The notes under the pieces are model-generated. The model saw nothing but the letters and a program-made list of their open reading frames with translations. It had not been told where the DNA came from and searched no databases. DNA of 64,000 nucleotides, taken from an uncultured Candidatus Actinomarina sp. Its GTDB lineage: Bacteria > Actinomycetota > Acidimicrobiia > Actinomarinales > Actinomarinaceae. Within the stretch, counting starts at the first letter, position 1. Each line of letters begins with the position of its first letter. Made by a program: the position numbers and the translations under genes. The stretch covers positions 607 to 64,606 of the forward strand of contig CACKFQ010000003.1 of NCBI GenBank assembly GCA_902599555.1, given 5' to 3'. Below, piece by piece: positions 640 to 47,657 of this stretch.

Positions 640-1444
640 GATCTATCCTTTCTAAAATTTCCTTGTAAGCTTCGTTAAATTTAATACTTTGTCCTGTCCA
701 TATGTTAAACGATGAAATTGCTTGAGCAATTAACATTATTGTTCCATCAATGGATGTTACATTTTTAGGAAGTTCACTTGTTAATTTCTTTGATACGCCA
801 TATCCAAAGTTATAGAACAATTCTAATTTTGAGAAATTTAGAAGACTCATTGGAAGTTTTTCGTTTTCATATGGTGGCATTCCCAGTGGCGTAGTATTTA
901 TAATGACCTCAATATCACCAGCAATCTCATTGAGATCTGAATAAGTTAAGTCTCCATCCTTTTTATTTCTAGACACTATGTAAACCTTATTATTTTCTGA
1001 TAACGTATACTGTGCAGTCTGAGCACTTCCTCCACTGCCAAGAATAAGAACATGTTTGTCGTTAATATCAAAATTTAAAAATTCAAAAGTTTGATTAATA
1101 CCATCCACATCTGTGTTTGATAATGAAACAATATTGTCATCTACTTTTACGGTATTTACAGCTTTAATATTATCAACTGCTAATGACCTCGAAACATTTT
1201 TTAAATCTTTAGATAAGTTATAAATGTTTTCTTTATGAGGAATTGTTATGTTATAACCATCAAAATTATTATTTAAACTTTCAAAGATATCTAAAGTAAA
1301 ATTTTCAATTGGTAATTTTTTATAAGTAATATCAACATTAGAAATCTCCGAGAGAGTTTGATGTATATTTGGAGAAAATGTCTTTATTAATGGCCAACCT
1401 ATTATCCCTAATCTAATTGTCATAATTTGCTCCAATTTTTTCAA
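629..1444 (-). CDS. aroE: shikimate 5-dehydrogenase
   Basis: 271-aa ORF with GIIGWPL..SPNIH, NITIPHK and GSGGSA (Rossmann) motifs. The true start may be the internal ATG at 1423 (MTIRLGIIG...). Confidence 0.9.
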   Translation of the reverse strand: MKKLEQIMTIRLGIIGWPLIKTFSPNIHQTLSEISNVDITYKKLPIENFTLDIFESLNNNFDGYNITIPHKENIYNLSKDLKNVSRSLAVDNIKAVNTVKVDDNIVSLSNTDVDGINQTFEFLNFDINDKHVLILGSGGSAQTAQYTLSENNKVYIVSRNKKDGDLTYSDLNEIAGDIEVIINTTPLGMPPYENEKLPMSLLNFSKLELFYNFGYGVSKKLTSELPKNVTSIDGTIMLIAQAISSFNIWTGQSIKFNEAYKEILERIDHEN

Positions 1445-2681
1445 GATCTGAAAAAAAACTAGGGTATGAATCTGAAATACAATTTATGTTATCTGGTTTA
1501 ATTCCTTCATTAATTGCTAGGTTTGCAATTACACCAGTCATAGCTATTCTATGGTCCTCAAAAGTTTTAATTTGTCCTGATTTGAGTTTTTGAGGACCTT
1601 TAACTTTAAACCCATCAGGGTTAACCTCTATTTCTCCATCAAGAGTTTTAATAAATTTTTCCATAGATTCTATACGGTCTGATTCTTTTAGTCTCAACTC
1701 ACCTGCACCACTAACGGTAGTTACTCCCTTTGCTTGAGTTGCCAAAAGGGTAAATATTGGAAATTCATCTACCATGTCAGATACGTCTTCTTTACTAACC
1801 TTGATAGCAGAGAGGTTGGATTTTGAAACATGTATATCTCCTACTGATTCATTATTTTTGACTTCTAAATTTTCGATTGATATTTTTGCGTTCATTCTCT
1901 TTAATATCTTGAGGAAACCAATTCTTCTCTCATTAAGTAAAACATCTTTGATGATTAATTTTTTACTTTTCATTAGCCCAAGTGCTATCAAAAAAGCTGC
2001 TGAAGAAGGATCTCCAGGAACAATATAATCCATACTTCTAAGGCTTTGTACAGGCTCTATTGTTATAGAATTACCAAGTCTTACTGTATTTACTCCCATT
2101 AAATTTAACATTCGTTCAGTGTGATCTCTTGTTGGCAACTCTTCAGTAACAGTCGTAGGAAATTCATCATGATATAGTGATGCAAGAAGAAATCCACTTT
2201 TAACTTGTGCACTTGGTTTGTCTGAATGAATGCTTTCAAATTTATAATCTTTTGGTTCAAAATTAATTGGTAATTTACCATTCGAATCTTTTATACCAGC
2301 ACCCTTTTCATTGAGCGGCTTAACTACTCTCTTCATTGGGCGATTGATTAATTGAGGACTACCAGTTAATTCAGTGCTGAAATTTTGTTTTGACAGTAGA
2401 CCTATAAGAAGCCTTGCGGTTGTGCCAGAATTTACTGCATCAAGTGAATTATTAGGTTGTTTTAAGCCACGTAACCCTACTCCGTGAATCTCAACTTCAC
2501 TGTTGTTTGTTTCATTTATTTCTACACCTAATTGTCTAAAAATCTGTATCGTGGCTTTAGTATCTCCTGACAATAAAATATTTTTGATTCTTGAAACTCC
2601 AGTTGCTAAAGAGCAGAGAATTACTGCTCGATGAGAAAGAGATTTGTCACCAATAATACTCAAAGTACCTTGAATTTTCAC
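1413..2681 (-). CDS. aroA: 3-phosphoshikimate 1-carboxyvinyltransferase (EPSP synthase)
   Basis: 422-aa ORF with GDKSLSHRA, NSGTTARLL and DHRIAM motifs. Confidence 0.95.
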   Translation of the reverse strand: MKIQGTLSIIGDKSLSHRAVILCSLATGVSRIKNILLSGDTKATIQIFRQLGVEINETNNSEVEIHGVGLRGLKQPNNSLDAVNSGTTARLLIGLLSKQNFSTELTGSPQLINRPMKRVVKPLNEKGAGIKDSNGKLPINFEPKDYKFESIHSDKPSAQVKSGFLLASLYHDEFPTTVTEELPTRDHTERMLNLMGVNTVRLGNSITIEPVQSLRSMDYIVPGDPSSAAFLIALGLMKSKKLIIKDVLLNERRIGFLKILKRMNAKISIENLEVKNNESVGDIHVSKSNLSAIKVSKEDVSDMVDEFPIFTLLATQAKGVTTVSGAGELRLKESDRIESMEKFIKTLDGEIEVNPDGFKVKGPQKLKSGQIKTFEDHRIAMTGVIANLAINEGIKPDNINCISDSYPSFFSDLEKIGANYDN

Positions 2682-3517
2682 TATGTGAGGTCTCTTTCTC
2701 CAAATTTGTCTGCTAACGCCCTACGCCAATCAACAGTATCTGACAAATAATCTAACATAATTTTTTCGTCATTAATTTTTTGAATTTTTTCAAGTTCTGA
2801 TATTAATTTATCAATTAAATCTTTGACATTGTCAACATTTGTTAAGTACATATCAGAAATCATATTTGGTGAAGTCCTAGATAGACGAGTAGCTCCATCA
2901 AAACCCCCGGAAGCTAAATTTATCAATTCGTTTAAATCTTGTTCTTTCATAGCAAGCGACACTAAGGCTGAACTTAGAATATGCGGCAAGTGACTTGTCA
3001 ATGAAATTAACTCGTCGTGTTTAGATTGATCAATCCATATCTCTTTAGATTTAATAGCTCGTACAAATTCTGAAACTATTGCTTTGCTTTGTTCATCTGT
3101 TGACTTTGTTTCACATAGCAAAAATGGTGCACCTTCATACATTTCAGGAGTCGGCACCCATGTACTATTATCAGCAACACCACATAATGGATGTCCACCT
3201 ATTGAAGGAATGGTAGATGTATCCATTTTTTTACATATAAGCTCTTTTGTACCTCCCAGGTCAACAATAGCTTTTGTTTTCAGAGATAATGGTGAATCAA
3301 AATAGTTGATAATTTCATTTATAGGTGTAGCCAAAACGGTAAGATCATAATCTATTGATTCTTTATGATCCAGCGAAAGAGCACCGAGCTCTTTTGCACG
3401 CCCTACATTTTTTTCTGAAATATCAGATCCACTTACTTTAATGCCACTATTAACCAACTTGATTCCCAAATTAGTTCCCATTAAACCAAGACCAATAATA
3501 TGAACTTTATTTAGCAT
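2681..3517 (-). CDS. tyrA: prephenate/arogenate dehydrogenase
   Basis: 278 aa with an N-terminal IIGLGLMGTNLG Rossmann motif and an HPLCG catalytic-His motif. Sits in a shikimate-pathway context. Confidence 0.85.
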   Translation of the reverse strand: MLNKVHIIGLGLMGTNLGIKLVNSGIKVSGSDISEKNVGRAKELGALSLDHKESIDYDLTVLATPINEIINYFDSPLSLKTKAIVDLGGTKELICKKMDTSTIPSIGGHPLCGVADNSTWVPTPEMYEGAPFLLCETKSTDEQSKAIVSEFVRAIKSKEIWIDQSKHDELISLTSHLPHILSSALVSLAMKEQDLNELINLASGGFDGATRLSRTSPNMISDMYLTNVDNVKDLIDKLISELEKIQKINDEKIMLDYLSDTVDWRRALADKFGERDLT

Positions 3518-4530
3518 TAAAGTGACCTTCCGACCGCCTTTGCGACAATCGATGCTTTGCTTATCAAAGTTTCTAATTCGCTAGGTAGTAACGCTTGTGG
3601 GCCATCACATAAAGCTTCTTCCGGCCTTGGGTGAATTTCAATTAATAACCCATCAGCCCCAGCAGCTATAGCTGCTAACGCAACTGGTTCAACTAAAGTA
3701 TTATCACCTGTCGCATGACTAGGATCAGCAATTACAGGTAAATGACTGTTCTGCTTCAAAAAAGGAATAGCATTTATATCAAATGTATTCCTTGTGGCTG
3801 TCTCATATGTTCTAATCCCTCTTTCACACAACATAACATTCTCATTTCCTCTAGATAAGATGTATTCACTTGCAAGTAATAACTCATCCAATGTTGCAGA
3901 CATTCCTCGTTTTAACAAAACAGGAAGCTCTGATTCACCAACAGCTTCGAGGAGTTTGAAATTCTGCATGTTTCTTGCACCAATTTGTAGAACATCTACA
4001 TATTTTTCCATCATTGATAAATGTTGCGCATCCATTATTTCACTAAAGAGAGGTAATGAAGTTATTTCGGAGGCCTCCTTTAGCATTTTTAATCCATCTT
4101 CACCCAATCCCTGGAAACTATATGGAGAAGTTCTTGGCTTAAATGCACCACCTCTCAAACCATTTGATCCTGCATCCTTTGCAGCCATTGCAGTTTCAAT
4201 TGTTTGTTCCTGTGTCTCCGCACTGTCTGGGCCAGCAATAATTGCGATTTCATCACCACCAATGGTTAGGTTTTGTACTTGAATAATGGAATTTTTCTTT
4301 TTGTAGTTTTTGCTCGCAAGTTTATATGGTTTTCCTACTGGAATAACTCGACTCACATTTGGTAAAAGCTTCATCACGGCTCGGTGATCATCATTCACTT
4401 TTCCACTAACTGCCACAACACTTCTTTCAACACCGTTGATAACAAGTGGTTCATGTCCTTGCTGTATGGCTTTTTCTTTTACTTTTTCAATATCTTCATC
4501 AGTATGAGACTGCTTCATTACTACTATCAA
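3517..4530 (-). CDS. aroF: 3-deoxy-7-phosphoheptulonate (DAHP) synthase, type I-beta, with N-terminal ferredoxin-like regulatory domain
   Basis: 337 aa. TTG start lies 4 nt after AGGAGG. The N-terminus MIVVMK... matches the Thermotoga-type DAH7PS N-terminus as I recall it. Core motifs IAGPDS, RGGAFKPRTSPYSFQGLG, LQIGARNMQNF and KRG are present. Confidence 0.93.
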   Translation of the reverse strand: MIVVMKQSHTDEDIEKVKEKAIQQGHEPLVINGVERSVVAVSGKVNDDHRAVMKLLPNVSRVIPVGKPYKLASKNYKKKNSIIQVQNLTIGGDEIAIIAGPDSAETQEQTIETAMAAKDAGSNGLRGGAFKPRTSPYSFQGLGEDGLKMLKEASEITSLPLFSEIMDAQHLSMMEKYVDVLQIGARNMQNFKLLEAVGESELPVLLKRGMSATLDELLLASEYILSRGNENVMLCERGIRTYETATRNTFDINAIPFLKQNSHLPVIADPSHATGDNTLVEPVALAAIAAGADGLLIEIHPRPEEALCDGPQALLPSELETLISKASIVAKAVGRSL

Positions 4531-4541
4531 TTTTCCTCCTC

Positions 4542-4572
4542 AAAATAAAAAAATCGGGCTTTTGCCCGATTT
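4542..4572 (-). terminator. intrinsic terminator, proposed attenuator terminator of the DAHP-synthase operon leader
   Basis: On the minus strand AAAUCGGGC (4572-4564), loop AAAA, GCCCGAUUU (4559-4551), then UUUUAUUUU. It runs directly into AGGAGG (4540-4535), so no promoter can fit between the terminator and the gene. Confidence 0.75.
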
Positions 4573-4595
4573 CACACAACGTACTTTAGGGCAAC

Positions 4596-4640
4596 CTATA
4601 TGTGCTCTCTAAAGTAAAAGTATGTGTTATTTAATTTCAT
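4596..4640 (-). CDS. candidate leader peptide MKLNNTYFYFREHI (Tyr-Phe-Tyr-Phe sensor)
   Basis: ATG AAA TTA AAT AAC ACA TAC TTT TAC TTT AGA GAG CAC ATA TAG, read directly from the sequence. The aromatic codons overlap segment 1 of the alternative hairpins upstream of the terminator. There is no SD, but TAACAT lies 8 nt upstream. Confidence 0.6.
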   Translation of the reverse strand: MKLNNTYFYFREHI

Positions 4641-4683
4641 TAACAAGTATGTTAGCAGACTATATAGCTTTGCAAATAAATTT

Positions 4684-5028
4684 TTATCTATCAGGTCTTA
4701 ACTTTTTTGCATCGTCTAAATAGACATGATTAATTACTTCTAAATCTTTATTTATGTAGATCAATATGCGAATGCACCCTGAAAGGTCACTATTTATATT
4801 TGGTGCAAGAGTATCTATAGCGGCAATAGATGTCATTCCAAGCTCTCTAAATGCTTTTGCTGGAAAAGCTTCAGTAATGTCATTAGTTACTGTAAAAATA
4901 ACAAATTCAATATCATTTTCAGTTATTGCATTATTAATTAGAATTTCATTAATAAGTTTTTTTGAAGAAGACATAATGCTTTCTTCATTGTTTTTTACAA
5001 CTGCAATTGCTCCACGTATGCTTTTCAT
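4684..5028 (-). CDS. aroH: chorismate mutase, AroH (monofunctional) type
   Basis: 114 aa. The pattern IRGA...(E)AFPAKAFREL...CIRILI...HVYL....LRPD matches the B. subtilis AroH layout and size. Confidence 0.88.
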   Translation of the reverse strand: MKSIRGAIAVVKNNEESIMSSSKKLINEILINNAITENDIEFVIFTVTNDITEAFPAKAFRELGMTSIAAIDTLAPNINSDLSGCIRILIYINKDLEVINHVYLDDAKKLRPDR

Positions 5029-5046
5029 AATATTTGTTTACTATAT

Positions 5047-5077
5047 AAAAAGAGTGGACTGATGTCCACTCTTTTTT
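5047..5077 (-). terminator. intrinsic terminator downstream of groEL (symmetric, A/T runs on both sides)
   Basis: 9-bp stem agagtggac (5051-5059) / gtccactct (5064-5072), 4-nt loop, flanked by an A-run and a T-run. Lies 20 nt after the groEL stop. Confidence 0.6.
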
Positions 5078-5097
5078 AATTCTTAGATATAAATTGA

Positions 5098-6738
<1,641 letters not shown>

Positions 6739-7032
6739 TTACTTACTTACTTTTGCAAGAATATCTCTACTTGAAAGAATAAGATACTCTGTGCCTTCAA
6801 CTTTAATTTCTGTACCACCATATTTTGAGTAAACGACTTTGTCGCCTTTTTCAACATCTGGTTTAATTTTTTCGCCACTATCATTTGGCTCTCCTGGACC
6901 AACTGCTACAACTTCACCCTCTTGTGGTTTTTCTTTCGCAGTATCAGGTATATAGATCCCTGATGGGGTCTTACTGTCTTCTTCTGACAAAGGTTTTACT
7001 ACAACTCTGTCTCCTAGTGGTTGAAGATTCAT
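6739..7032 (-). CDS. groES: co-chaperonin GroES
   Basis: 97 aa ([11 protein letters not shown]...[10 protein letters not shown]...), immediately upstream of groEL. Confidence 0.97.
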
Positions 7033-7070
7033 ATATATTTACCTCCTAAATAAATATCTACATTGTGAAT

Positions 7071-7098
7071 TTAATACTGTCTTGTTTATATATGTAAA
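7071..7098 (-). promoter_or_regulatory. candidate sigma-70-type promoter for groES-groEL (TTTACA-N16-TATTAA)
   Basis: On the minus strand TTTACA (7098-7093), a 16-nt spacer, then TATTAA (7076-7071), about 40 nt upstream of the groES ATG. Hexamer match only, in AT-rich DNA. Confidence 0.3.
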
Positions 7099-7113
7099 TA
7101 AATTATTTAAAAA

Positions 7114-8115
7114 TTAAGCAATTATTGAGCTTAAACGGACATCATCAGCATTTATGTCATTTGTTATTAAATTATTTTGAGCAGCAACACAAATCATTGC
7201 AGCATTATCAGTAGATAACTTTGGTGTTGGTAAGTAGATATTAAGGTCATTATTTTCTGCAAAAATATTCATTTTTTCCCTGAGTCTTGAATTAGCCATC
7301 ACTCCTCCACCGCCAGAAATATTTTTAACACCCGTTTCATTAACTGCTTTAACAAAATTTGATAATAATGAATCAACAATAGCCTCTTGATAAGATGCAG
7401 CAAAGTCAGCTTTTGTTACTTTGTCATTTGGATCTAGATTGTTCAAAAAATTTGTTGCAGCAGTTTTTAAGCCTGAAAATGAATAGTTATACTCATGCTT
7501 TGTTTTTGGTCGGGGAAGCTCTATTTTGTTAGGATCTCCACCTTCACCTATTTTTTGAATAGCAGGACCTCCTGGAAAACCGAATCCACAAAACCTAGAT
7601 AATTTGTCAAAGGCTTCACCCGCTGCATCATCTATCGTTGTACCTAATAATTGGTAATTATCCCACTCTTCAACTAGTACAATTTGTGTATGGCCACCTG
7701 AAACTAAAAGTGTCATAAATGGTGGTTTCATTGTTCTATTTTCAATTAATGGTGCTGCCAAATGTCCTACCATATGGTCAACAGTTAGAAATGGTTTATC
7801 TATGGACCAAGCTACTGACTTAGCAAAATTATATCCTACTACAAGACTTCCAACGAGACCGGGGCCATCTGTAGTTGAAACTATATCAATATCTGAAATT
7901 TGTAAATTTGCACTATTTAATGACGCATGAAATATATTTCTTATCATCTCAGCATGTGCTCTTGATGCAACTTCAGGAACTACACCTCCAAATTTTTCAT
8001 GTATATCTACTTGTGATGAAATAGTATTTACTAACAATTCGTCACCTTTTAATATCGCAATAGCTGTTTCATCGCATGATGTTTCAAATCCAAGAATTAT
8101 TTGGTCGTCAAGCAT
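7114..8115 (-). CDS. tsaD: tRNA N6-adenosine threonylcarbamoyltransferase TsaD
   Basis: Kae1/Gcp family (ILGFETSCDETA..., GGH, GGGGV). The track ORF extends to 8151. I prefer ATG 8115 (MLDDQIILGFETSCDE), which overlaps the rimI stop by 8 nt. Confidence 0.92.
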   Translation of the reverse strand: MLDDQIILGFETSCDETAIAILKGDELLVNTISSQVDIHEKFGGVVPEVASRAHAEMIRNIFHASLNSANLQISDIDIVSTTDGPGLVGSLVVGYNFAKSVAWSIDKPFLTVDHMVGHLAAPLIENRTMKPPFMTLLVSGGHTQIVLVEEWDNYQLLGTTIDDAAGEAFDKLSRFCGFGFPGGPAIQKIGEGGDPNKIELPRPKTKHEYNYSFSGLKTAATNFLNNLDPNDKVTKADFAASYQEAIVDSLLSNFVKAVNETGVKNISGGGGVMANSRLREKMNIFAENNDLNIYLPTPKLSTDNAAMICVAAQNNLITNDINADDVRLSSIIA

Positions 8116-10906: not shown

Positions 10907-12703
10907 TTATTCCACTGTCACTGATTTTGCTAGATTTCTTGGCTGATCAATTGACTCACCATTAAGGTTAGCAACATGATAAGCAATGAACTGGAGTGGA
11001 ATTATGGATATGACTGTAGTTAAAATTTCATTACTATCTGGAAGGGTGACATATTCGTCAGATATATTTTCTAATTTTTCTGATTGATTATCACCAATTG
11101 CTATGACATAAGCTCCTCTAGCAATAACCTCTTGTACGTTACTAGTTGTTTTGTCTAACAAGTGATTTTGACTAGCAGTTACAATTATCGGAGTTCCGTC
11201 TTCAATTAAAGCTAAAGTTCCGTGTTTTAGTTCTCCAGCTGCCAACGCTTCTGCATGTAAGTAAGAAATTTCTTTTAATTTCAAAGCACCCTCTGCTGCA
11301 AGTGCGTAATCTAGCCCTCTACCAATAAAATAAATATCATTCTTTTTATAAATTTTTTCAGATATATCTTTTATTTGTTTCTCACAATCCATAGTCTCTT
11401 CGATCAATTTTGGTAGTTCGGCAATCTCATCAAAAGAAACATCTAATTTATTTTGAGAATCCCAATGTTTAGCTAACAGTAATTGTCCAACTAACATTCC
11501 AAGATAGGCTTTAGTTGAAGCTACACCTATTTCTGGGCCAACGTGTAAGTAAAAAACACTGTCAGCCATTCTTGCTAACGAGCTGCCCACAACATTCACT
11601 AAAGCAAGCACATGAGCATCATTTTCCTTTAAAAGCTCTGTTGCAGCAATGGTGTCCATGGTCTCACCAGATTGTGAAATTACAATGCCTAAATCGTTTT
11701 TGCCAACTATTGGTTCTCTATATCTAAATTCCGAAGCAAGTTCGACACTGACGGGAACTCCTAAAACTTTTTCAAAAAGGTCTTTTCCGAATAAACCAGC
11801 ATGGTAAGCAGTGCCGCATGCAACTATCCAAATTTTTTCATACTTTGATGCTTCATCTTGTTTAATTGGAATCTCTTTAGAAGTTGTTTCAAGTCTTCCA
11901 GAAATGGTTCGTTCTATTACTTCTGACTGTTCAAGTATTTCCTTGTACATAAAGTGGTCATACCCAAGCTTTTCAGCTTCGGAAACCTCCCAGTCTATTT
12001 CTTGAATTTCTCTTTCAATTTGGTTCAATTCTGAATCAAACAACTTATATTGACCATTTTTAATTTCTACAAAATCTCCATTTTCCAAAAAAATCATTTT
12101 ATTTGTGTGTTCTAAAATAGCTGCTGAATCAGATGCTAAAAATACTTCGTTTTCTCCAACACCTAAGACAAGAGGGCTCATTAAACGGCCTGCAACAATA
12201 GTTCCTTCTTCTTTTGTAGTAGTTACAACAAGAGCATATGTGCCTTCTAAAGTTTTTGCTACATCAGTTACAGTTTTCAACAATTGACCATTCCATTTTC
12301 TACTTAACTCAACTGCAACAACCTCTGTGTCAGTATCAGATTTAAATTCAAAACCTTCTTCTAAAAGATCTTTCTTAATTTCTGCATAGTTCTCGATTAT
12401 TCCATTATGAATGATTGCAAATTCTTCACTATCGTCAGAATGTGGATGAGCATTAACATCATTTGGAACTCCATGAGTTGCCCATCTTGTATGACCAATA
12501 CCTATATTGCCTTTAATATTACTATCTTTTAAATGATTTTTTAAAACGTCCAGTTTACCTTCTTTTTTTTCAACAGTAATTTTGTTACCATCAGAAATTG
12601 CAATTCCAGCTGAATCGTACCCTCGATACTCTAAACGTGATAAACCATTAATTAGAATTGGTAATGGTTCTTTTGGGCCTGAATACCCGACTATTCCACA
12701 CAT
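10907..12703 (-). CDS. glmS: glutamine--fructose-6-phosphate aminotransferase
   Basis: 598 aa with N-terminal MCGIVGY (catalytic Cys2), SIS domains, and C-terminal ...AKSVTVE. Confidence 0.98.
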   Translation of the reverse strand: MCGIVGYSGPKEPLPILINGLSRLEYRGYDSAGIAISDGNKITVEKKEGKLDVLKNHLKDSNIKGNIGIGHTRWATHGVPNDVNAHPHSDDSEEFAIIHNGIIENYAEIKKDLLEEGFEFKSDTDTEVVAVELSRKWNGQLLKTVTDVAKTLEGTYALVVTTTKEEGTIVAGRLMSPLVLGVGENEVFLASDSAAILEHTNKMIFLENGDFVEIKNGQYKLFDSELNQIEREIQEIDWEVSEAEKLGYDHFMYKEILEQSEVIERTISGRLETTSKEIPIKQDEASKYEKIWIVACGTAYHAGLFGKDLFEKVLGVPVSVELASEFRYREPIVGKNDLGIVISQSGETMDTIAATELLKENDAHVLALVNVVGSSLARMADSVFYLHVGPEIGVASTKAYLGMLVGQLLLAKHWDSQNKLDVSFDEIAELPKLIEETMDCEKQIKDISEKIYKKNDIYFIGRGLDYALAAEGALKLKEISYLHAEALAAGELKHGTLALIEDGTPIIVTASQNHLLDKTTSNVQEVIARGAYVIAIGDNQSEKLENISDEYVTLPDSNEILTTVISIIPLQFIAYHVANLNGESIDQPRNLAKSVTVE

Positions 12704-12742
12704 TATATCTCCATTCCAACGAGCAGGTTAAAACAAAGACTG

Positions 12743-12872
12743 CTGTAAATTGTCTCTGTTCACAGATTTCTCTATGTTTTTAAACAATTTATTACGACTG
12801 CAGAGCCGAGTATGCATCCGCCGAATGTTTCGATAACATACTTCCTCGTCACCTTTTTCAAGGCCTGGCGCT
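12743..12872 (-). ncRNA. glmS ribozyme: glmS ribozyme (GlcN6P-dependent self-cleaving leader)
   Basis: The minus strand reads A|GCGCCAGG-CCUUGAAAAAGG-UGACGAGGAAGUAUGUUAUCGAAACAUUCGGCGGAUGCAUACUCGGCUCUGCAGUCGUAA...AGAGAAAUCUGUG...ACAG. The conserved blocks AGCGCCAG, GACGAGG, GUUAUCGAA, UUCGGCGGAUGC, CGGCU and AGAGAAAUC occur in the order recalled for Bacillus glmS ribozymes, directly upstream of glmS. Confidence 0.85.
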
Positions 12873-12905
12873 AATTGCTCGTTATTACAATTATAAGAAA
12901 CTTAT

Positions 12906-46148: not shown

Positions 46149-46222
46149 CAGGGGCGGTGAGACTCGAACTCACAACCTACGGTTTTGGAGACCGTCGCTC
46201 TGCCAATTAGAGCTACACCCCT
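46149..46222 (-). tRNA. trpT: tRNA-Trp (anticodon CCA)
   Basis: Hand-folded cloverleaf AGGGGTG-TA-GCTC-TAATTGGCA-GAGC-G-ACGGT-CTCCAAA-ACCGT-AGGTT-GTGAG-TTCGAGT-CTCAC-CGCCCCT-G. No encoded 3' CCA. Confidence 0.95.
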
Positions 46223-46225
46223 CAG

Positions 46226-46600
46226 TTATTGCTCCTTCTCTAATTTGCTAGATGAGCGCTTGCGTCCAAATATTAAAAATATAATTGATAATATTCCGAG
46301 CAATGTCAATAATATTATTTTTGTGCTCTTACTTGTAGTTGTTTTTACTTTTTTATCTAATGATGACATTACCTTCGAAGCAAAGTCTGTTGGTACTTCA
46401 ACTTCTTTTTTGAATTCATTATCTAATTCCTTTTTAAAGGCTTTATATCTTTTTCCAGAGACTTGACATTTAATACACGAAGAGGCGTGTGCATTGTTAT
46501 CGAAACCAAAATATTGATTGCTAAGATAAGAAGACAACATATTATTTCTGGTTCTTTTACAAAGTATATTTGTTTTCAAGTTTGAAAAAATATCTTTCAT
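46226..46600 (-). CDS. membrane-anchored zinc-binding (ZAS) anti-sigma factor
   Basis: 124 aa. C14-x23-H38-x3-C42-x2-C45 (HASSCIKC) fits the ZAS pattern. A single C-terminal TM (IILLTLLGILSIIFLIFG) leaves only ~12 residues beyond it. An ATGA overlap joins it to the sigma gene. Confidence 0.8.
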   Translation of the reverse strand: MKDIFSNLKTNILCKRTRNNMLSSYLSNQYFGFDNNAHASSCIKCQVSGKRYKAFKKELDNEFKKEVEVPTDFASKVMSSLDKKVKTTTSKSTKIILLTLLGILSIIFLIFGRKRSSSKLEKEQ

Positions 46601-47181
46601 CTTTCTACTTCCTCTAATATCTGTCTTAATTTTTGATGAGCTCTATGCAATCTAACTTTTGCAGCTGTAACACTTATTCCAAGAAACTCAGCAATCTCTT
46701 TGTGTGATCTACCTTCAATGTTTTTCAACTCAACAATTATTCTCTGATCCATTGGAATCTTATCTAAAGCACTTACTAAGACAGAAGATAGATCTGAATT
46801 AATGGCAACTAGCTCTGGATCTTTTTTTTCGTCAATAACAATTGGCTCATAAGTTTCCTCAATATTAAGAGTGTTATGCTTCTTTGCTTTTTTTCTGAGA
46901 GTCCATGCTGTGTTAACGGTAATTCTATAAATCCAGGTACTAAATGTAGAATCTCCGCGAAACTTTTCAATTGCTTTCCATGCTCTAATAAATGACTCTT
47001 GTGCTACATCATTTGCCATTTCTCTGTTGCCGGTTAATTTGTAAGCTAATGAAAAGACTAAATCCTGATGCCTAACAACTAATTGTTCAAACGCAGATTT
47101 GTCACCAAACTGTGATTTTTTGACTAACTCTGAATTAGAGATGTCATCATTGTAGTTTTCTATATTAGAAACGTTTTTCAT
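46597..47181 (-). CDS. ECF (group 4) sigma-70 family sigma factor
   Basis: 194 aa with region 2 (...DVAQESFIRAWKAI..F......FSTWIYRI..N) and region 4 HTH (...SHKEIAEFLGISVTAAKVRLHRA). Confidence 0.92.
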   Translation of the reverse strand: MKNVSNIENYNDDISNSELVKKSQFGDKSAFEQLVVRHQDLVFSLAYKLTGNREMANDVAQESFIRAWKAIEKFRGDSTFSTWIYRITVNTAWTLRKKAKKHNTLNIEETYEPIVIDEKKDPELVAINSDLSSVLVSALDKIPMDQRIIVELKNIEGRSHKEIAEFLGISVTAAKVRLHRAHQKLRQILEEVER

Positions 47182-47218
47182 TATCTAATGTAAGAATAAT
47201 TATTAAAAATTGATAAAT

Positions 47219-47380
47219 CTACCTTTTTTCTCTGTGAAGAGTATGCTTTCGCAACCTAGGGCTATATTTCATTAGCTCTAGCCTATCTGGTGTGTTTGTT
47301 TTATTTTTGGTAGTCACATAATTGTGATCACCAGTTTCTGTACACACCAAAGTAATTGGTGGCCTTTTGTCAGACGCCAT
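47219..47380 (-). CDS. rpmG: 50S ribosomal protein L33 (C-minus form)
   Basis: Hand translation gives [53 protein letters not shown]. It is below the track cutoff. SD AAGGA lies upstream. The slot after tRNA-Tyr/Thr/Met matches mycobacterial order. Confidence 0.9.
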
Positions 47381-47401
47381 TTTTTTCCTTTCTTACTTTT
47401 G

Positions 47402-47475
47402 TAGCGGCGGGCAGACTTGAACTGCCGACCTCACGATTATGAGTCGTGCGCTCTTACCAACTGAGCTACGCCGCC
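47402..47475 (-). tRNA. metT: tRNA-Met (anticodon CAT; elongator type, Ile-lysidine identity not excluded)
   Basis: Cloverleaf GGCGGCG-TA-GCTC-AGTTGGTAA-GAGC-G-CACGA-CTCATAA-TCGTG-AGGTC-GGCAG-TTCAAGT-CTGCC-CGCCGCT-A. No encoded CCA. Confidence 0.9.
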
Positions 47476-47497
47476 TTAAGACTTAGTTTAGCCTCTG

Positions 47498-47570
47498 AGC
47501 CCTCTTCCGGGATTGAACCGGAGACCTCTTCCTTACCATGGAAGTGCTCTACCAACTGAGCTAAGAGGGC
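47498..47570 (-). tRNA. thrT: tRNA-Thr (anticodon GGT)
   Basis: Cloverleaf GCCCTCT-TA-GCTC-AGTTGGTA-GAGC-A-CTTCC-ATGGTAA-GGAAG-AGGTC-TCCGG-TTCAATC-CCGGA-AGAGGGC-T. No encoded CCA. Confidence 0.95.
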
Positions 47571-47575
47571 TTTAG

Positions 47576-47657
47576 TGCCGAGAGTAGGATTCGAACCTAC
47601 GAAGGCGTAGCCGGCAGATTTACAGTCTGCTCCCTTTGGCCGCTCGGGCATCTCGGC
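47576..47657 (-). tRNA. tyrT: tRNA-Tyr (anticodon GTA, long variable arm)
   Basis: 82 nt, GCCGAGA...GCAGA-CTGTAAA-TCTGC-CGGCTACGCCTTC-GTAGG-TTCGAAT-CCTAC-TCTCGGC-A. Confidence 0.93.

What the first reader, a model, noticed from the sequence alone, without database searches (positions are those of the whole stretch)
4541..4654. Candidate ribosome-mediated attenuator with a Tyr-Phe-Tyr-Phe leader peptide in front of the DAHP synthase-tyrA-aroA-aroE-aroC operon
Most junctions in this window are overlaps or under 15 nt, yet the aroH to DAHP-synthase spacer is 153 nt. Read on the minus strand it contains four elements. (i) ATG(4640) AAA TTA AAT AAC ACA TAC TTT TAC TTT AGA GAG CAC ATA TAG(4596) encodes MKLNNTYFYFREHI, with four consecutive Tyr/Phe codons at 4622-4611. 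(ii) Segment 1 UACUUUAG (4616-4609, inside those codons) is complementary to segment 2 CUAAAGUA (4589-4582). (iii) UUGCCC (4594-4589, touching segment 2) is complementary to GGGCAA (4567-4562), which is part of the terminator 5' arm and loop. (iv) A 9-bp terminator AAAUCGGGC/GCCCGAUUU (4572-4564/4559-4551) plus UUUUAUUUU runs straight into AGGAGG (4540-4535) and the TTG start (4530). No promoter can fit after it, so the terminator must sit inside the operon leader. The peptide stop codon is 2 nt upstream of UUGCCC. A terminating ribosome would therefore mask segment 2 and let the terminator form. A ribosome stalled on the Tyr/Phe codons would mask only segment 1 and allow the 2:3 antiterminator. 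This is trp/pheA-type geometry. The peptide ATG has no SD, but TAACAT (TANNNT, 4654-4649) sits 8 nt upstream, compatible with a leaderless short ORF like the attenuator sORFs described in mycobacteria. The controlled genes make Tyr/Phe precursors, and the DAHP synthase also carries an allosteric N-terminal domain, so two control layers are plausible.
Basis: partly seen in the sequence, partly recalled or inferred. Interest (0 to 1): 0.78.

Follow-up and report, generated by a model that had tools for sequence, protein, structure and literature searches.

The report
Tyr/Phe leader-peptide attenuator of aromatic operon
A 100-base leader in front of the aromatic amino-acid operon of the tiny marine bacterium Candidatus Actinomarina encodes a 14-residue peptide with four Tyr/Phe codons followed by a transcription terminator; it is very probably a classical ribosome-sensing attenuator, a well-known kind of switch that had not been described in this group.

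Summary
The window comes from Candidatus Actinomarina, a streamlined marine actinobacterium. The 153-nt aroH–DAHP synthase spacer holds five things. There is a promoter-like TTKGYA-N16-TGnTAnnnT. An ATG without an SD follows 6-8 nt later. It opens a 13-14 codon ORF, M-x5-[Y/F]-F-Y-F-x2-H-I-stop. Next comes a long hairpin (P1) that pairs the ORF with the post-stop segment. A 9-10 bp terminator abuts the SD of the DAHPS-tyrA-aroA-aroE-aroC operon.

All 40 full-length Actinomarinales species genomes found keep this layout. So do 126 of 127 loci once metagenome contigs are added (24 peptide variants, always four aromatic codons). The leader is 89% identical across the order, against 64-73% for the flanking genes.

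Frame-preserving changes and 3-periodic variability argue that the ORF is translated. These changes include synonymous substitutions, Tyr/Phe swaps and a 3-nt deletion.

In folding with a ribosome parked on the aromatic codons, UUGCCC:GGGCAA becomes the best structure of the nascent RNA. That helix is only 5-6 bp, shows no covariation, and loses to the terminator at equilibrium.

The closest precedent is the aroR (Phe-Tyr-Phe) attenuator of Corynebacterium glutamicum aroF. Verdict: real, well supported, a new member of a known kind, of moderate interest.

The parts
4671..4676 (-). -35-like hexamer TTTGCA (TTKGYA in the order), 16 nt upstream of the -10
   Evidence: Alignment A1: T8, T9, G11 and A13 are invariant among variable neighbours. 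The L020 clade has TTGGCA-N16-TATGAT.
4649..4657 (-). Extended -10 TGCTAACAT (TGnTAnnnT)
   Evidence: T27, G28, T30, A31 and T35 are invariant in A1. The distance to the ATG is 6-8 nt in the GTDB genomes and metagenome contigs. Function as a promoter is inferred.
4596..4640 (-). Leader ORF MKLNNTYFYFREHI plus its stop; no SD, probably leaderless or with a 1-2 nt leader
   Evidence: Kept in 126 of 127 loci with 24 peptide variants. Codon table. Third-position variability in codons 2-6 is 0.29 against 0.10 and 0.09.
4611..4622 (-). Regulatory codons TAC TTT TAC TTT (Tyr-Phe-Tyr-Phe)
   Evidence: Only TAC, TAT or TTT at the first codon, TTT at the second, TAC or TAT at the third, and TTT at the fourth in all loci.
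4602..4627 (-). P1 5' strand (segment 1): codons 5-13, RNA nt 14-39
   Evidence: MFE folds of the window and of all 31 orthologues. Compensatory changes occur in the outer helix.
4574..4595 (-). P1 3' strand (segment 2): RNA nt 46-67, including UUGCCC
   Evidence: UGCCC pairs with G32, G34 and G36-C37-A38 in P1.
4589..4594 (-). Antiterminator 5' strand UUGCCC
   Evidence: GCCC is invariant, and the two U are U or C in some clades. It forms the MFE helix of the nascent RNA when the aromatic codons are masked.
4562..4567 (-). Antiterminator 3' strand GGGCAA, i.e. the end of the terminator 5' arm plus two loop bases
   Evidence: Invariant.
4550..4573 (-). Intrinsic terminator hairpin (G)AAAUCGGGC-AAAA-GCCCGAUUU(U)
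   Evidence: Pattern scan. -13.8 kcal/mol. Invariant in the 40 full-length genomes chosen by protein similarity.
4542..4549 (-). Rest of the U-tract (TTTATTTT)
4535..4540 (-). Shine-Dalgarno AGGAGG of the DAHP synthase gene; not in any predicted helix
3517..4530 (-). First controlled gene: type I-beta DAHP synthase with N-terminal FXD domain (TTG start). It is followed by tyrA 2681-3517, aroA 1413-2681, aroE 629-1444 and aroC, which starts near 640 and runs off the window end.
   Evidence: Pfam. Full-length match to T. maritima DAHPS 1RZM/3PG9.
4684..5028 (-). Upstream aroH (AroH-class chorismate mutase). Its transcripts have no terminator of their own and would end at the leader terminator.
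   Evidence: Pfam CM_1. There is no hairpin between its stop and the leader.

Best explanation
This is a ribosome-mediated transcription attenuator that reports the supply of charged tRNA-Tyr and tRNA-Phe. It controls the DAHPS-tyrA-aroA-aroE-aroC operon of Candidatus Actinomarina.

The steps below are inferred. Transcription starts at or 1-2 nt before the ATG at 4640, from an extended -10 promoter. A 70S ribosome translates the 14-codon ORF.

If Tyr-tRNA and Phe-tRNA are plentiful, the ribosome runs to the stop codon and covers UUGCCC. After release, the long P1 hairpin re-forms and sequesters UUGCCC. Either way GGGC stays free, the terminator at 4573-4550 forms, and transcription ends about 10 nt before the SD.

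If either charged tRNA is scarce, the ribosome stalls on codons 7-10 and holds the 5' strand of P1. The freed UUGCCC pairs with GGGCAA as soon as that emerges. The terminator cannot nucleate, and RNA polymerase reads into the operon.

Transcripts coming from aroH, on which the ORF is internal and has no SD, would mostly fold P1 and terminate. The terminator would therefore also serve aroH.

The sequence elements, their conservation and the predicted folds are shown. The start site, translation of the ORF, the antiterminator and the physiological response are inferred.
For: (1) Anatomy. All elements are present at the stated coordinates, and the fold has z = -5.4.

(2) Conservation.
- The scan that chose loci by DAHPS protein similarity returned 41 Actinomarinales loci. 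Forty of them include the spacer. L041 is a contig fragment that begins at DAHPS residue 137, so its upstream region is absent.
- All 40, with DAHPS 76-99% identical, keep the promoter motif, ORF, P1, terminator and SD.
- Leader identity is 88.7% on average. The aroH 3' end is at 64%, the DAHPS 5' end at 73%, and third codon positions at about 50%.
- Actinomarinales have a median intergenic spacer of 2 bp (PMC7771536).

(3) Coding signature.
- Of 127 usable loci, 126 keep an in-frame ATG near the promoter, a run of four aromatic codons, and the stop. There are 56 distinct RNAs and 24 distinct peptides.
- Synonymous changes occur: AAA/AAG, TTA/CTA, AAT/AAC, ACA/ACT, TAC/TAT, CAC/CAT.
- Tyr-to-Phe swaps occur at the first aromatic codon.
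- One clade has an in-frame 3-nt deletion.
- The stop alternates between TAG and TAA.
- In codons 2-6, third positions are about three times as variable as the first two.
- The first two aromatic codons lie in an internal loop of P1. RNA pairing therefore does not explain why they are conserved.
- In the one exception, L129, a deletion fuses aroH in frame to codon 5 of the ORF.

(4) Structure.
- Every orthologue folds into P1 plus the terminator.
- The outer helix shows compensatory changes: CG to UA, and CACA:UGUG to UGCA:UGCA.
- Cognate strands pair better than permuted ones; 2 of 2000 permutations do as well.
- One-sided changes in the inner helix are G-U compatible.

(5) Switch geometry.
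- With a ribosome mask on an aromatic codon and the RNA cut at the terminator loop, UUGCCC:GGGCAA is the MFE helix in 27 of 31 orthologues at all four stall positions. In the other four it is the MFE at the later positions only.
- Without a ribosome, P1 forms. GGGC is left unpaired in 23 of the 31 orthologues.
- The direct-path barrier from antiterminator to terminator is about 11.5 kcal/mol. By my own rough rate estimate, that would outlast passage through the U-tract.

(6) Logic.
- The controlled genes make the Tyr/Phe precursors.
- The order is reported to be auxotrophic for Trp, which fits the absence of Trp codons.
- The order has two sigma factors and no two-component systems, so regulation in cis is a plausible choice.

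(7) Precedent. C. glutamicum aroR has Phe-Tyr-Phe in front of aroF. Leader peptides without an RBS are known in actinobacterial attenuators (Morbach 2000, cited).
Against: - The antiterminator is only 5-6 bp, at -5.6 to -7.4 kcal/mol. The terminator is at -13.5 to -14.2.
- In full-length RNA with a stalled ribosome, the terminator is still the MFE in every orthologue. The switch must therefore be kinetic.
- The antiterminator, the inner P1 helix and the terminator never vary, so covariation neither supports nor tests them.
- The outermost U-A pair of the antiterminator is broken in 8 of 31 sequences.
- Without a ribosome, GGGC is not left free in the MFE of 8 of 31 orthologues.
- The apical loop AUAUA and the codon AUA are invariant, although synonymous changes would be allowed. 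The model does not explain this.
- The test 'variable columns are the unpaired ones' is not significant, p = 0.15.
- The -10 to ATG distance of 8 nt in the window is at the long end for a start exactly on the A.
- There are no transcript-end, ribosome or expression data.
- For the metagenome subset, the terminator and the last ORF codons were fixed by the search pattern and filter. Only the 40 genomes chosen by protein similarity are unbiased for those parts.
Confidence: 0.75

Rival explanations
1. It is a terminator/antiterminator switch operated by something other than a translating ribosome. A protein, an uncharged tRNA or a small molecule would bind the invariant apical part of P1 (GnGnGCACAUAUARGYUGCCC). 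The short ORF would be incidental or only auxiliary.
For: The apical loop and the His-Ile codons are invariant at the nucleotide level, and AUA shows no synonymous change. Residues 11-12 vary (R/S/G/I, E/A) while the paired G's do not, so this part is constrained as RNA, not as peptide. The antiterminator is weak on its own, and a bound factor could help it.
Against: This does not explain the invariant ATG at a fixed distance from the -10. It does not explain the in-frame deletion, the stop kept as TAG or TAA, or the 3-periodic variability of codons 2-6. It also does not explain why four codons, two of them unpaired, stay aromatic. No Rfam family, T-box included, matches even at E up to 10. 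The element is only about 50 nt, and the genome is reported to have little regulatory capability.
Confidence: 0.1
2. It is an ordinary terminator ending aroH (and groESL-aroH) transcripts, with constitutive partial read-through feeding the downstream operon. The conserved upstream sequence would serve another purpose, for example transcript stability.
For: aroH has no other terminator. The same hairpin sequence occurs as a generic terminator in about 13 unrelated metagenome contigs. The terminator is the equilibrium structure in all modelled states.
Against: A plain terminator does not need a conserved promoter-like motif, a conserved ORF with aromatic codons, or a second copy of GCCC placed right after the stop codon. 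Intrinsic terminators normally drift quickly (my general knowledge). Here about 100 nt are 89% identical across an order whose flanking genes are at 64-73%. An operon with five biosynthetic genes would be left without a promoter of its own.
Confidence: 0.07
3. It is an independent small gene: a roughly 95-nt sRNA, or a 14-residue peptide with a function of its own, that merely sits between aroH and the operon.
For: It has its own promoter-like motif and terminator, and very high conservation.
Against: The N-terminal half of the peptide is variable and the residues after the aromatic run vary. The terminator lies 10-20 nt from the operon's SD in every genome, with no room for another promoter. 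So the operon depends on read-through whatever else the RNA does. The element is always linked to this operon, and no second copy occurs in the window or in the flanks of the fetched loci.
Confidence: 0.04

Closest known systems
aroR-aroF attenuator of Corynebacterium glutamicum (Mentz et al. 2013, PMC4046766; Neshat et al. 2014, J Biotechnol 190:55, as summarised in PMC11802643 and PMC7356990)
   Same: It is an actinobacterial leader peptide with mixed Phe and Tyr codons (Phe-Tyr-Phe), directly upstream of a DAHP synthase gene. Ribosome stalling there raises expression.
   Different: The order is different (Mycobacteriales against Actinomarinales). The run has three aromatic codons there and four here. 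By my own knowledge, the DAHP synthase is type I-alpha there; here it is type I-beta with an FXD domain. The operon content also differs. Independent origin is likely. In C. glutamicum only Phe limitation was reported to matter.
Classical trp and pheA (pheL) attenuators of Escherichia coli
   Same: The layout has four segments: regulatory codons in segment 1, 1:2 pairing, 2:3 antiterminator and 3:4 intrinsic terminator. The stop codon lies just before segment 2. The terminator is thermodynamically stronger than the antiterminator.
   Different: There is no SD, and the start is probably leaderless. The leader is much shorter, about 100 nt. The antiterminator has only 5-6 bp. The codons are mixed Tyr and Phe, whereas Tyr-reporting leader peptides are, to my knowledge, not known in E. 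coli. The attenuator controls the common pathway plus tyrA. There is no match to the Rfam Phe/Trp leader models.
Leaderless polycysteine short-ORF attenuators of mycobacteria (Canestrari et al. 2020, bioRxiv 10.1101/834739)
   Same: An actinobacterial leaderless short ORF carries a run of codons for the amino acid whose metabolism the operon serves. A stalled ribosome remodels downstream RNA structure.
   Different: Those act on translation by unmasking the ribosome-binding site. Here the SD is unpaired, and the regulated structure is an intrinsic terminator.
ilvBNC attenuator of C. glutamicum, whose leader peptide is made without a ribosome-binding site (Morbach et al. 2000, cited in PMC4046766)
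   Same: It is a transcription attenuator whose leader peptide lacks an SD.
   Different: The amino acids are branched-chain, and the operon and lineage differ.
Tyr/Phe T-box leaders in front of aro genes in Firmicutes
   Same: Both give cis-acting control of aromatic biosynthesis genes by tRNA charging, through a terminator/antiterminator choice.
   Different: T-boxes bind uncharged tRNA directly and, by my knowledge, are longer than 180 nt with a conserved T-box sequence. Nothing of that kind is found here.

Membership tests
Ribosome-mediated (leader-peptide) transcription attenuator | A short ORF in the leader with a run of codons for the end-product amino acid(s) of the controlled pathway | tested here: met
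   A 13-14 codon ORF with [Y/F]-F-Y-F is present in 126 of 127 loci. The operon encodes DAHPS, TyrA, AroA, AroE and AroC.
Ribosome-mediated (leader-peptide) transcription attenuator | An intrinsic terminator between the leader ORF and the first structural gene, with no promoter after it | tested here: met
   The hairpin at 4573-4550 plus T-run was found by the scan and has -13.8 kcal/mol. The SD begins 10-20 nt after the stem in all genomes.
Ribosome-mediated (leader-peptide) transcription attenuator | An antiterminator that excludes the terminator, and is itself excluded by pairing with the ORF region (1:2, 2:3, 3:4) | tested here: inconclusive
   UUGCCC pairs either with G32/G34/GCA in P1 or with GGGCAA of the terminator arm. 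With the aromatic codons masked, it is the MFE of the nascent RNA at all four stall positions in 27 of 31 orthologues, and at the later positions in the rest. But it has only 5-6 bp, never varies, and loses at equilibrium.
Ribosome-mediated (leader-peptide) transcription attenuator | The leader ORF is translated | not testable with these tools
   The evidence is indirect only: frame conservation, an in-frame indel, synonymous changes and 3-periodic variability.
Ribosome-mediated (leader-peptide) transcription attenuator | Read-through rises when the cognate charged tRNA is limiting | not testable with these tools
   The organism is uncultured and no expression data were available.
C. glutamicum aroR-type attenuator (as a homologous family) | Sequence or structural homology of the leader to aroR | not tested
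Only the functional parallel is documented.
Mycobacterial leaderless short-ORF translational attenuators | [quoted passage not shown] | tested here: not met
   AGGAGG at 4540-4535 is unpaired in all folds. The structure next to it is a terminator.
Mycobacterial leaderless short-ORF translational attenuators | The short ORF starts at the 5' end of the transcript | tested here: inconclusive
   A conserved TGnTAnnnT lies 6-8 nt before the ATG and there is no SD. No transcript 5' ends were available.
Rfam leader families (Phe_leader, Trp_leader, leu/phe leader, T-box and others) | A match to the covariance model | tested here: not met
   cmscan of 3500-7500 at E up to 10 gives no relevant hit in 4531-4683. 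The gathering-threshold scan of the whole window finds only glmS and tRNAs.

The most novel reading that the evidence does not exclude
The leader is more than a textbook attenuator. The nucleotide-level invariance of the His-Ile-stop codons and the apical loop, together with a very short antiterminator, could mean a second input. Examples would be a programmed pause or slow release of the ribosome at the stop codon, sensing of free aromatic amino acids through the nascent YFYF-x-x-HI peptide, or a bound factor. It might also be essentially the only dedicated regulator of aromatic biosynthesis in the most streamlined free-living actinobacteria, having arisen independently of C. glutamicum aroR.
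Probability: 0.1. Interest if true: 0.65.

Novelty: new member of a known kind. Interest (0 to 1): 0.4.

Why it matters
Candidatus Actinomarinales are among the smallest and most abundant free-living marine bacteria. They are reported to have two sigma factors, no two-component systems, 'little regulatory capabilities' and a median intergenic spacer of 2 bp (PMC7771536).

A 153-nt spacer that is better conserved than the genes around it is therefore one of the few visible regulatory devices in these genomes. It suggests how a minimal cell matches Tyr/Phe synthesis to demand without a protein regulator. It would act on top of the probable allosteric control of the DAHP synthase through its FXD domain.

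It adds a second, probably independent, case of a mixed Tyr/Phe leader peptide controlling DAHP synthase in Actinobacteria. It is also a compact example, with a 5-6 bp antiterminator, of a probably leaderless transcription attenuator.

It gives a ready marker for metatranscriptome studies. The ratio of leader reads to operon reads would report the aromatic amino-acid status of Actinomarina in the sea. It does not change any concept of gene regulation.

Tried and rejected
- **Known RNA families.** Rfam at permissive and gathering thresholds gave nothing in the spacer.
- **T-box reading.** Rejected: there is no model hit, the element is too short, and there is no tRNA-acceptor bulge.
- **Same leader in other phyla.** I looked for it in front of FXD-type DAHPS genes in other phyla (39 loci). 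None has it; two chance short ORFs turned up. The element is therefore confined to Actinomarinales.
- **Other leaders of this design.** I scanned the window and all Actinomarinales flanks for a short ORF with an amino-acid run, then a terminator, then an SD. All 159 hits were this element. The window has no second copy of the core.
- **Equilibrium folding with a stalled ribosome.** The terminator always wins, so a thermodynamic switch is rejected and only a kinetic one remains.
- **An alternative helix.** CACAUA (codons 13-14) pairing with UGUGUG could have explained the invariant loop. It appears in the window fold, but the 3' partner varies freely while CACAUAUA does not. Not supported.
- **Variable columns test.** The Fisher test that variable columns are the unpaired ones gave p = 0.15, not significant.
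- **Column-wise covariation.** On the 31-row alignment A1 the antiterminator has no informative columns, and neither do the inner P1 helix or the terminator. RNAalifold on the 49-row alignment A2 found no pair with changes on both sides. The outer helix shifts register between clades, so I used a cognate-versus-permuted duplex test instead.
- **Promoter scan.** The standard scan does not list the leader promoter, which matches 8 of 12 in the window. The case for it rests on its conservation pattern.
- **Contig ends inside the leader.** L113, for example, ends 1 nt into the ATG. I considered using these as transcript ends and dropped the idea, because I could not tell whether those contigs are metatranscriptomes.
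Full report
**What is in the sequence.**

- The short ORF runs from ATG 4640 to TAG 4596 and encodes MKLNNTYFYFREHI.
- Four aromatic codons lie at 4622-4611.
- UACUUUAG at 4616-4609 faces CUAAAGUA at 4589-4582.
- UUGCCC at 4594-4589 faces GGGCAA at 4567-4562.
- A hairpin AAAUCGGGC/GCCCGAUUU and a T-run end about 10 nt before AGGAGG (4540-4535).

The only slip is that the stop codon is 1 nt, not 2 nt, before UUGCCC.

The consensus scan calls the hairpin a terminator. Pfam confirms the genes. Upstream are groES, groEL and an AroH-class chorismate mutase. Downstream are a DAHP synthase with the N-terminal ferredoxin-like domain, TyrA, EPSP synthase, shikimate dehydrogenase and chorismate synthase.

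The DAHP synthase matches the Thermotoga maritima enzyme (1RZM/3PG9) over its whole length, including the N-terminal domain.

The putative transcript 4640-4541 folds at -30.1 kcal/mol, with z = -5.4 against shuffles. A short ORF with four consecutive Tyr/Phe codons arises in 0.37% of dinucleotide shuffles of the spacer.

**Whose genome it is.**

A scan of one genome per species with the DAHP synthase protein returned 41 loci from Candidatus Actinomarina/Actinomarinales at 76-99% protein identity. The next best hits drop to about 54% in other phyla.

According to López-Pérez et al. 2020 (PMC7771536), these are the most streamlined actinobacteria.

- Genome size is about 1.1 Mb and GC content about 32.5%.
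- The median intergenic spacer is 2 bp.
- They have two sigma factors and no two-component systems.
- They are consistently auxotrophic for Arg, His and Trp.

In such a genome a 153-nt spacer stands out. The Trp auxotrophy fits a leader that carries Tyr and Phe codons but no Trp codon.

**Comparative test.**

Forty of the 41 Actinomarinales loci include the spacer. The other, L041, is a contig fragment that starts inside the DAHPS gene. All 40 spacers (36 distinct) keep the whole arrangement:

- a -35-like TTKGYA;
- 16 nt downstream, a TGnTAnnnT extended -10;
- 6-8 nt later, an ATG without any SD;
- a 13-14 codon ORF;
- the post-stop segment, the terminator, and the SD of the operon.

In the alignment, the invariant promoter positions sit among freely varying neighbours. 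That is the pattern expected of a real promoter.

The leader, from the ATG to the T-run, is on average 88.7% identical (minimum 78%). The last 90 nt of aroH are at 64% and the first 300 nt of the DAHPS gene at 73%. Third codon positions are at about 50%.

The 39 DAHPS loci from other phyla have no comparable leader.

A metagenome scan with the terminator as its pattern returned 104 stretches. About 90 of them are this leader and about 13 are unrelated terminators with the same hairpin.

Pooled with the genomes, 127 loci are long enough to judge, and 126 keep three things: an in-frame ATG near the promoter, a run of four aromatic codons, and the stop. They comprise 56 distinct RNAs and 24 distinct peptides. 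For the metagenome subset the terminator and the last codons were fixed by my search and filter, so only the start, the frame and the aromatic run are free observations there.

**Is the ORF read as codons?**

The substitutions say yes.

- Synonymous changes are frequent: AAA/AAG, TTA/CTA, AAT/AAC, ACA/ACT, TAC/TAT, CAC/CAT.
- The first aromatic codon is TAC, TAT or TTT and nothing else.
- One clade has lost exactly one codon (MKINTYFYF...).
- The stop alternates between TAG and TAA.
- In codons 2-6, third positions are about three times as variable as first and second positions (0.29 against 0.10 and 0.09).

The first two aromatic codons lie in an internal loop of the predicted hairpin, so RNA pairing does not explain their constancy.

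The single exception among the 127 loci, L129, is instructive if it is real. A deletion removes the aroH stop, the promoter and ORF codons 1-4, and it joins aroH in frame to codon 5 (...KLRPNTYFYFREHI*). Ribosomes would still read the aromatic codons and stop at the same place.

One truncated contig, L145, has a ninth T in the Phe codons. That would shift the frame, but a homopolymer error cannot be excluded.

**The RNA structure.**

Every orthologue folds into the same two elements.

The first is a long hairpin P1, which has three parts:

- an outer helix, between codons 5-7 and the distal post-stop segment;
- an apical part, in which G32, G34 and G36-C37-A38 pair with U48-G49-C50-C51-C52.

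The second is the terminator, which follows P1 immediately.

The outer helix shows compensatory changes, CG to UA at one pair and CACA:UGUG to UGCA:UGCA in L157/L181. Cognate strands pair better than permuted ones, -5.76 against -5.08 kcal/mol, and 2 of 2000 permutations do as well. That test ignores phylogeny.

In the inner helix, the few one-sided changes are G-U compatible.

The most variable positions inside the core (nt 33, 45, 47 and 35) are all bulged or looped in P1. However, a formal test of 'variable equals unpaired' is not significant, p = 0.15, because the apical loop AUAUA never varies.

Residues 11-12 of the peptide vary (R/S/G/I, E/A) while the paired G's in those codons do not. 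The 3' part of the ORF is therefore constrained as RNA and the aromatic run as codons.

**Does the switch work on paper?**

At equilibrium, no. With a ribosome masked onto any aromatic codon, the full-length RNA still prefers the terminator. The terminator has about -13.8 kcal/mol and the UUGCCC:GGGCAA helix -5.6 to -7.4.

Kinetically, yes. I cut the RNA at the terminator loop, the state before the 3' arm exists, and masked the aromatic codons.

- The antiterminator helix is then the minimum-energy structure at all four stall positions in 27 of 31 orthologues.
- In the other four (L002, L006, L011, L014/L016) it is the minimum only at the later stall positions.
- Without a ribosome, P1 forms instead, and GGGC is left unpaired in 23 of the 31.

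The direct refolding path from antiterminator to terminator has a barrier of about 11.5 kcal/mol. With a usual rate prefactor, which is my own rough estimate, that gives a lifetime of seconds or more. This is longer than RNA polymerase needs to clear the U-tract.

From memory, the E. coli trp attenuator also has a terminator considerably more stable than its antiterminator.

A ribosome at the stop codon would cover UUGCCC, since the stop ends 1 nt before it. The terminated state is therefore also explained.

The chain of alternative partners is GnGnGCA: UGCCC: GGGCA: GCCC. It offers a reason why none of these bases ever changes, because any change would need three or four simultaneous compensations. 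That is an argument, not a test. Covariation is silent on the antiterminator.

**Most likely mechanism.**

This is a ribosome-mediated transcription attenuator that reports Tyr-tRNA and Phe-tRNA charging. It controls the common aromatic pathway plus tyrA and starts from a leaderless or near-leaderless short ORF (confidence about 0.75).

Transcripts arriving from aroH, which has no terminator of its own, would carry the ORF internally without an SD. They would fold P1 and stop at the same terminator, which therefore does double duty.

**Rivals.**

- A switch driven by a factor or ligand that binds the invariant apical region (0.1).
- A plain aroH terminator with constitutive read-through (0.07).
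- An independent small RNA or peptide gene (0.04).

Each of these fails to explain some of the following: the conserved start, frame, aromatic codons and stop; the conserved promoter; or the position of the terminator hard against the operon's SD.

**Comparison with what is known.**

No Rfam family matches.

The closest known system is the aroR leader peptide (Phe-Tyr-Phe) in front of aroF, a DAHP synthase gene, in Corynebacterium glutamicum. It was detected by RNA-seq (PMC4046766). It is described as a ribosome-stalling attenuator that responds to Phe limitation (Neshat et al. 2014, as summarised in PMC11802643, and PMC7356990).

Leader peptides without a ribosome-binding site are also known there (Morbach et al. 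2000, cited).

Mycobacterial leaderless polycysteine ORFs work by unmasking an RBS (bioRxiv 10.1101/834739). That feature is not met here, because the SD is unpaired and the structure is a terminator.

The 2005 survey of actinobacterial attenuators found trp, ilvB, cys and leuA elements but none for aro genes (PMC1262725). A full-text search found no paper that links Actinomarina with attenuators.

The element is therefore a new member of a known kind. The principle is the same as in trp, pheA and aroR. The lineage is new, and the origin is probably independent: the DAHP synthase class differs and the leader is confined to one order. The form is unusually compact.

**What remains open.**

- The transcription start, translation of the ORF and the response to Tyr/Phe are inferred.
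- The antiterminator is short and is supported only by conservation and folding.
- The absolute invariance of the loop AUAUA, including the Ile codon AUA, is unexplained. It is the one hint that something beyond the textbook model, such as stop-codon context, a pause signal or a bound factor, may be involved.

Noticed in passing
window 12737-12883 (-): A glmS ribozyme (Rfam RF00234, 89 bits) lies in the 202-nt spacer directly upstream of the glmS-sized ORF at 10907-12703. It is another cis-acting RNA regulator in this streamlined genome.
   Followed up: no
window 5029-5097 (-), hairpin 5047-5076: The groEL-aroH spacer holds a 13-bp hairpin flanked by A-runs and T-runs, terminator-like in both directions. 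It is overlapped by a promoter-like TGGACA-17-TATAGT (5068-5040). The aroH ATG at 5028 has no SD and lies 11 nt after that -10, so aroH may also have a very short leader.
   Followed up: partly
L129 (LUMQ01001684.1), leader region: This natural deletion variant lacks the aroH stop, the leader promoter and ORF codons 1-4. aroH is fused in frame to codon 5 of the leader ORF (...KLRPNTYFYFREHI*). It is a single contig and could be an assembly artefact.
   Followed up: partly
L145 (Ga0247584_1008813), contig end inside the leader: There are nine T instead of eight in the Phe-Phe codons, which would shift the leader ORF frame (NTFFLL*). It is either a homopolymer sequencing error or a real frameshift allele.
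   Followed up: no
L116 (PVBE010145494.1, 2.5 kb), 2477-2499(+) and 838-860(-): Two different variants of the leader lie in opposite orientation on one short contig. This is probably a chimeric assembly of two strains.
   Followed up: no
L082, L085, L095, L103, L111, L119, L143, L149, L155, L161, L171, L176, L179: The bare hairpin AATCGGGCAAANGCCCGATTTTT also occurs in about 13 unrelated metagenome contigs, without the short ORF or P1. The terminator sequence alone is therefore generic and not diagnostic.
   Followed up: partly
window 4601-4597 (-), RNA nt 40-44: The apical loop AUAUA of P1, which includes the Ile codon AUA, is invariant in 49 distinct leaders. Synonymous changes would be allowed and the bases are unpaired, so this is unexplained.
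   Followed up: partly
window 46149-47657 (-): Four tRNA genes are here. Three cluster at 47402-47657 and one lies at 46149-46222, in and next to the largest spacer of the window. The rest of the window is a run of short, tightly packed ORFs plus two very large ones, almost all on the minus strand. It looks like a ribosomal-protein and RNA-polymerase region, though I ran no family search on it. GC skew is strong.
   Followed up: no
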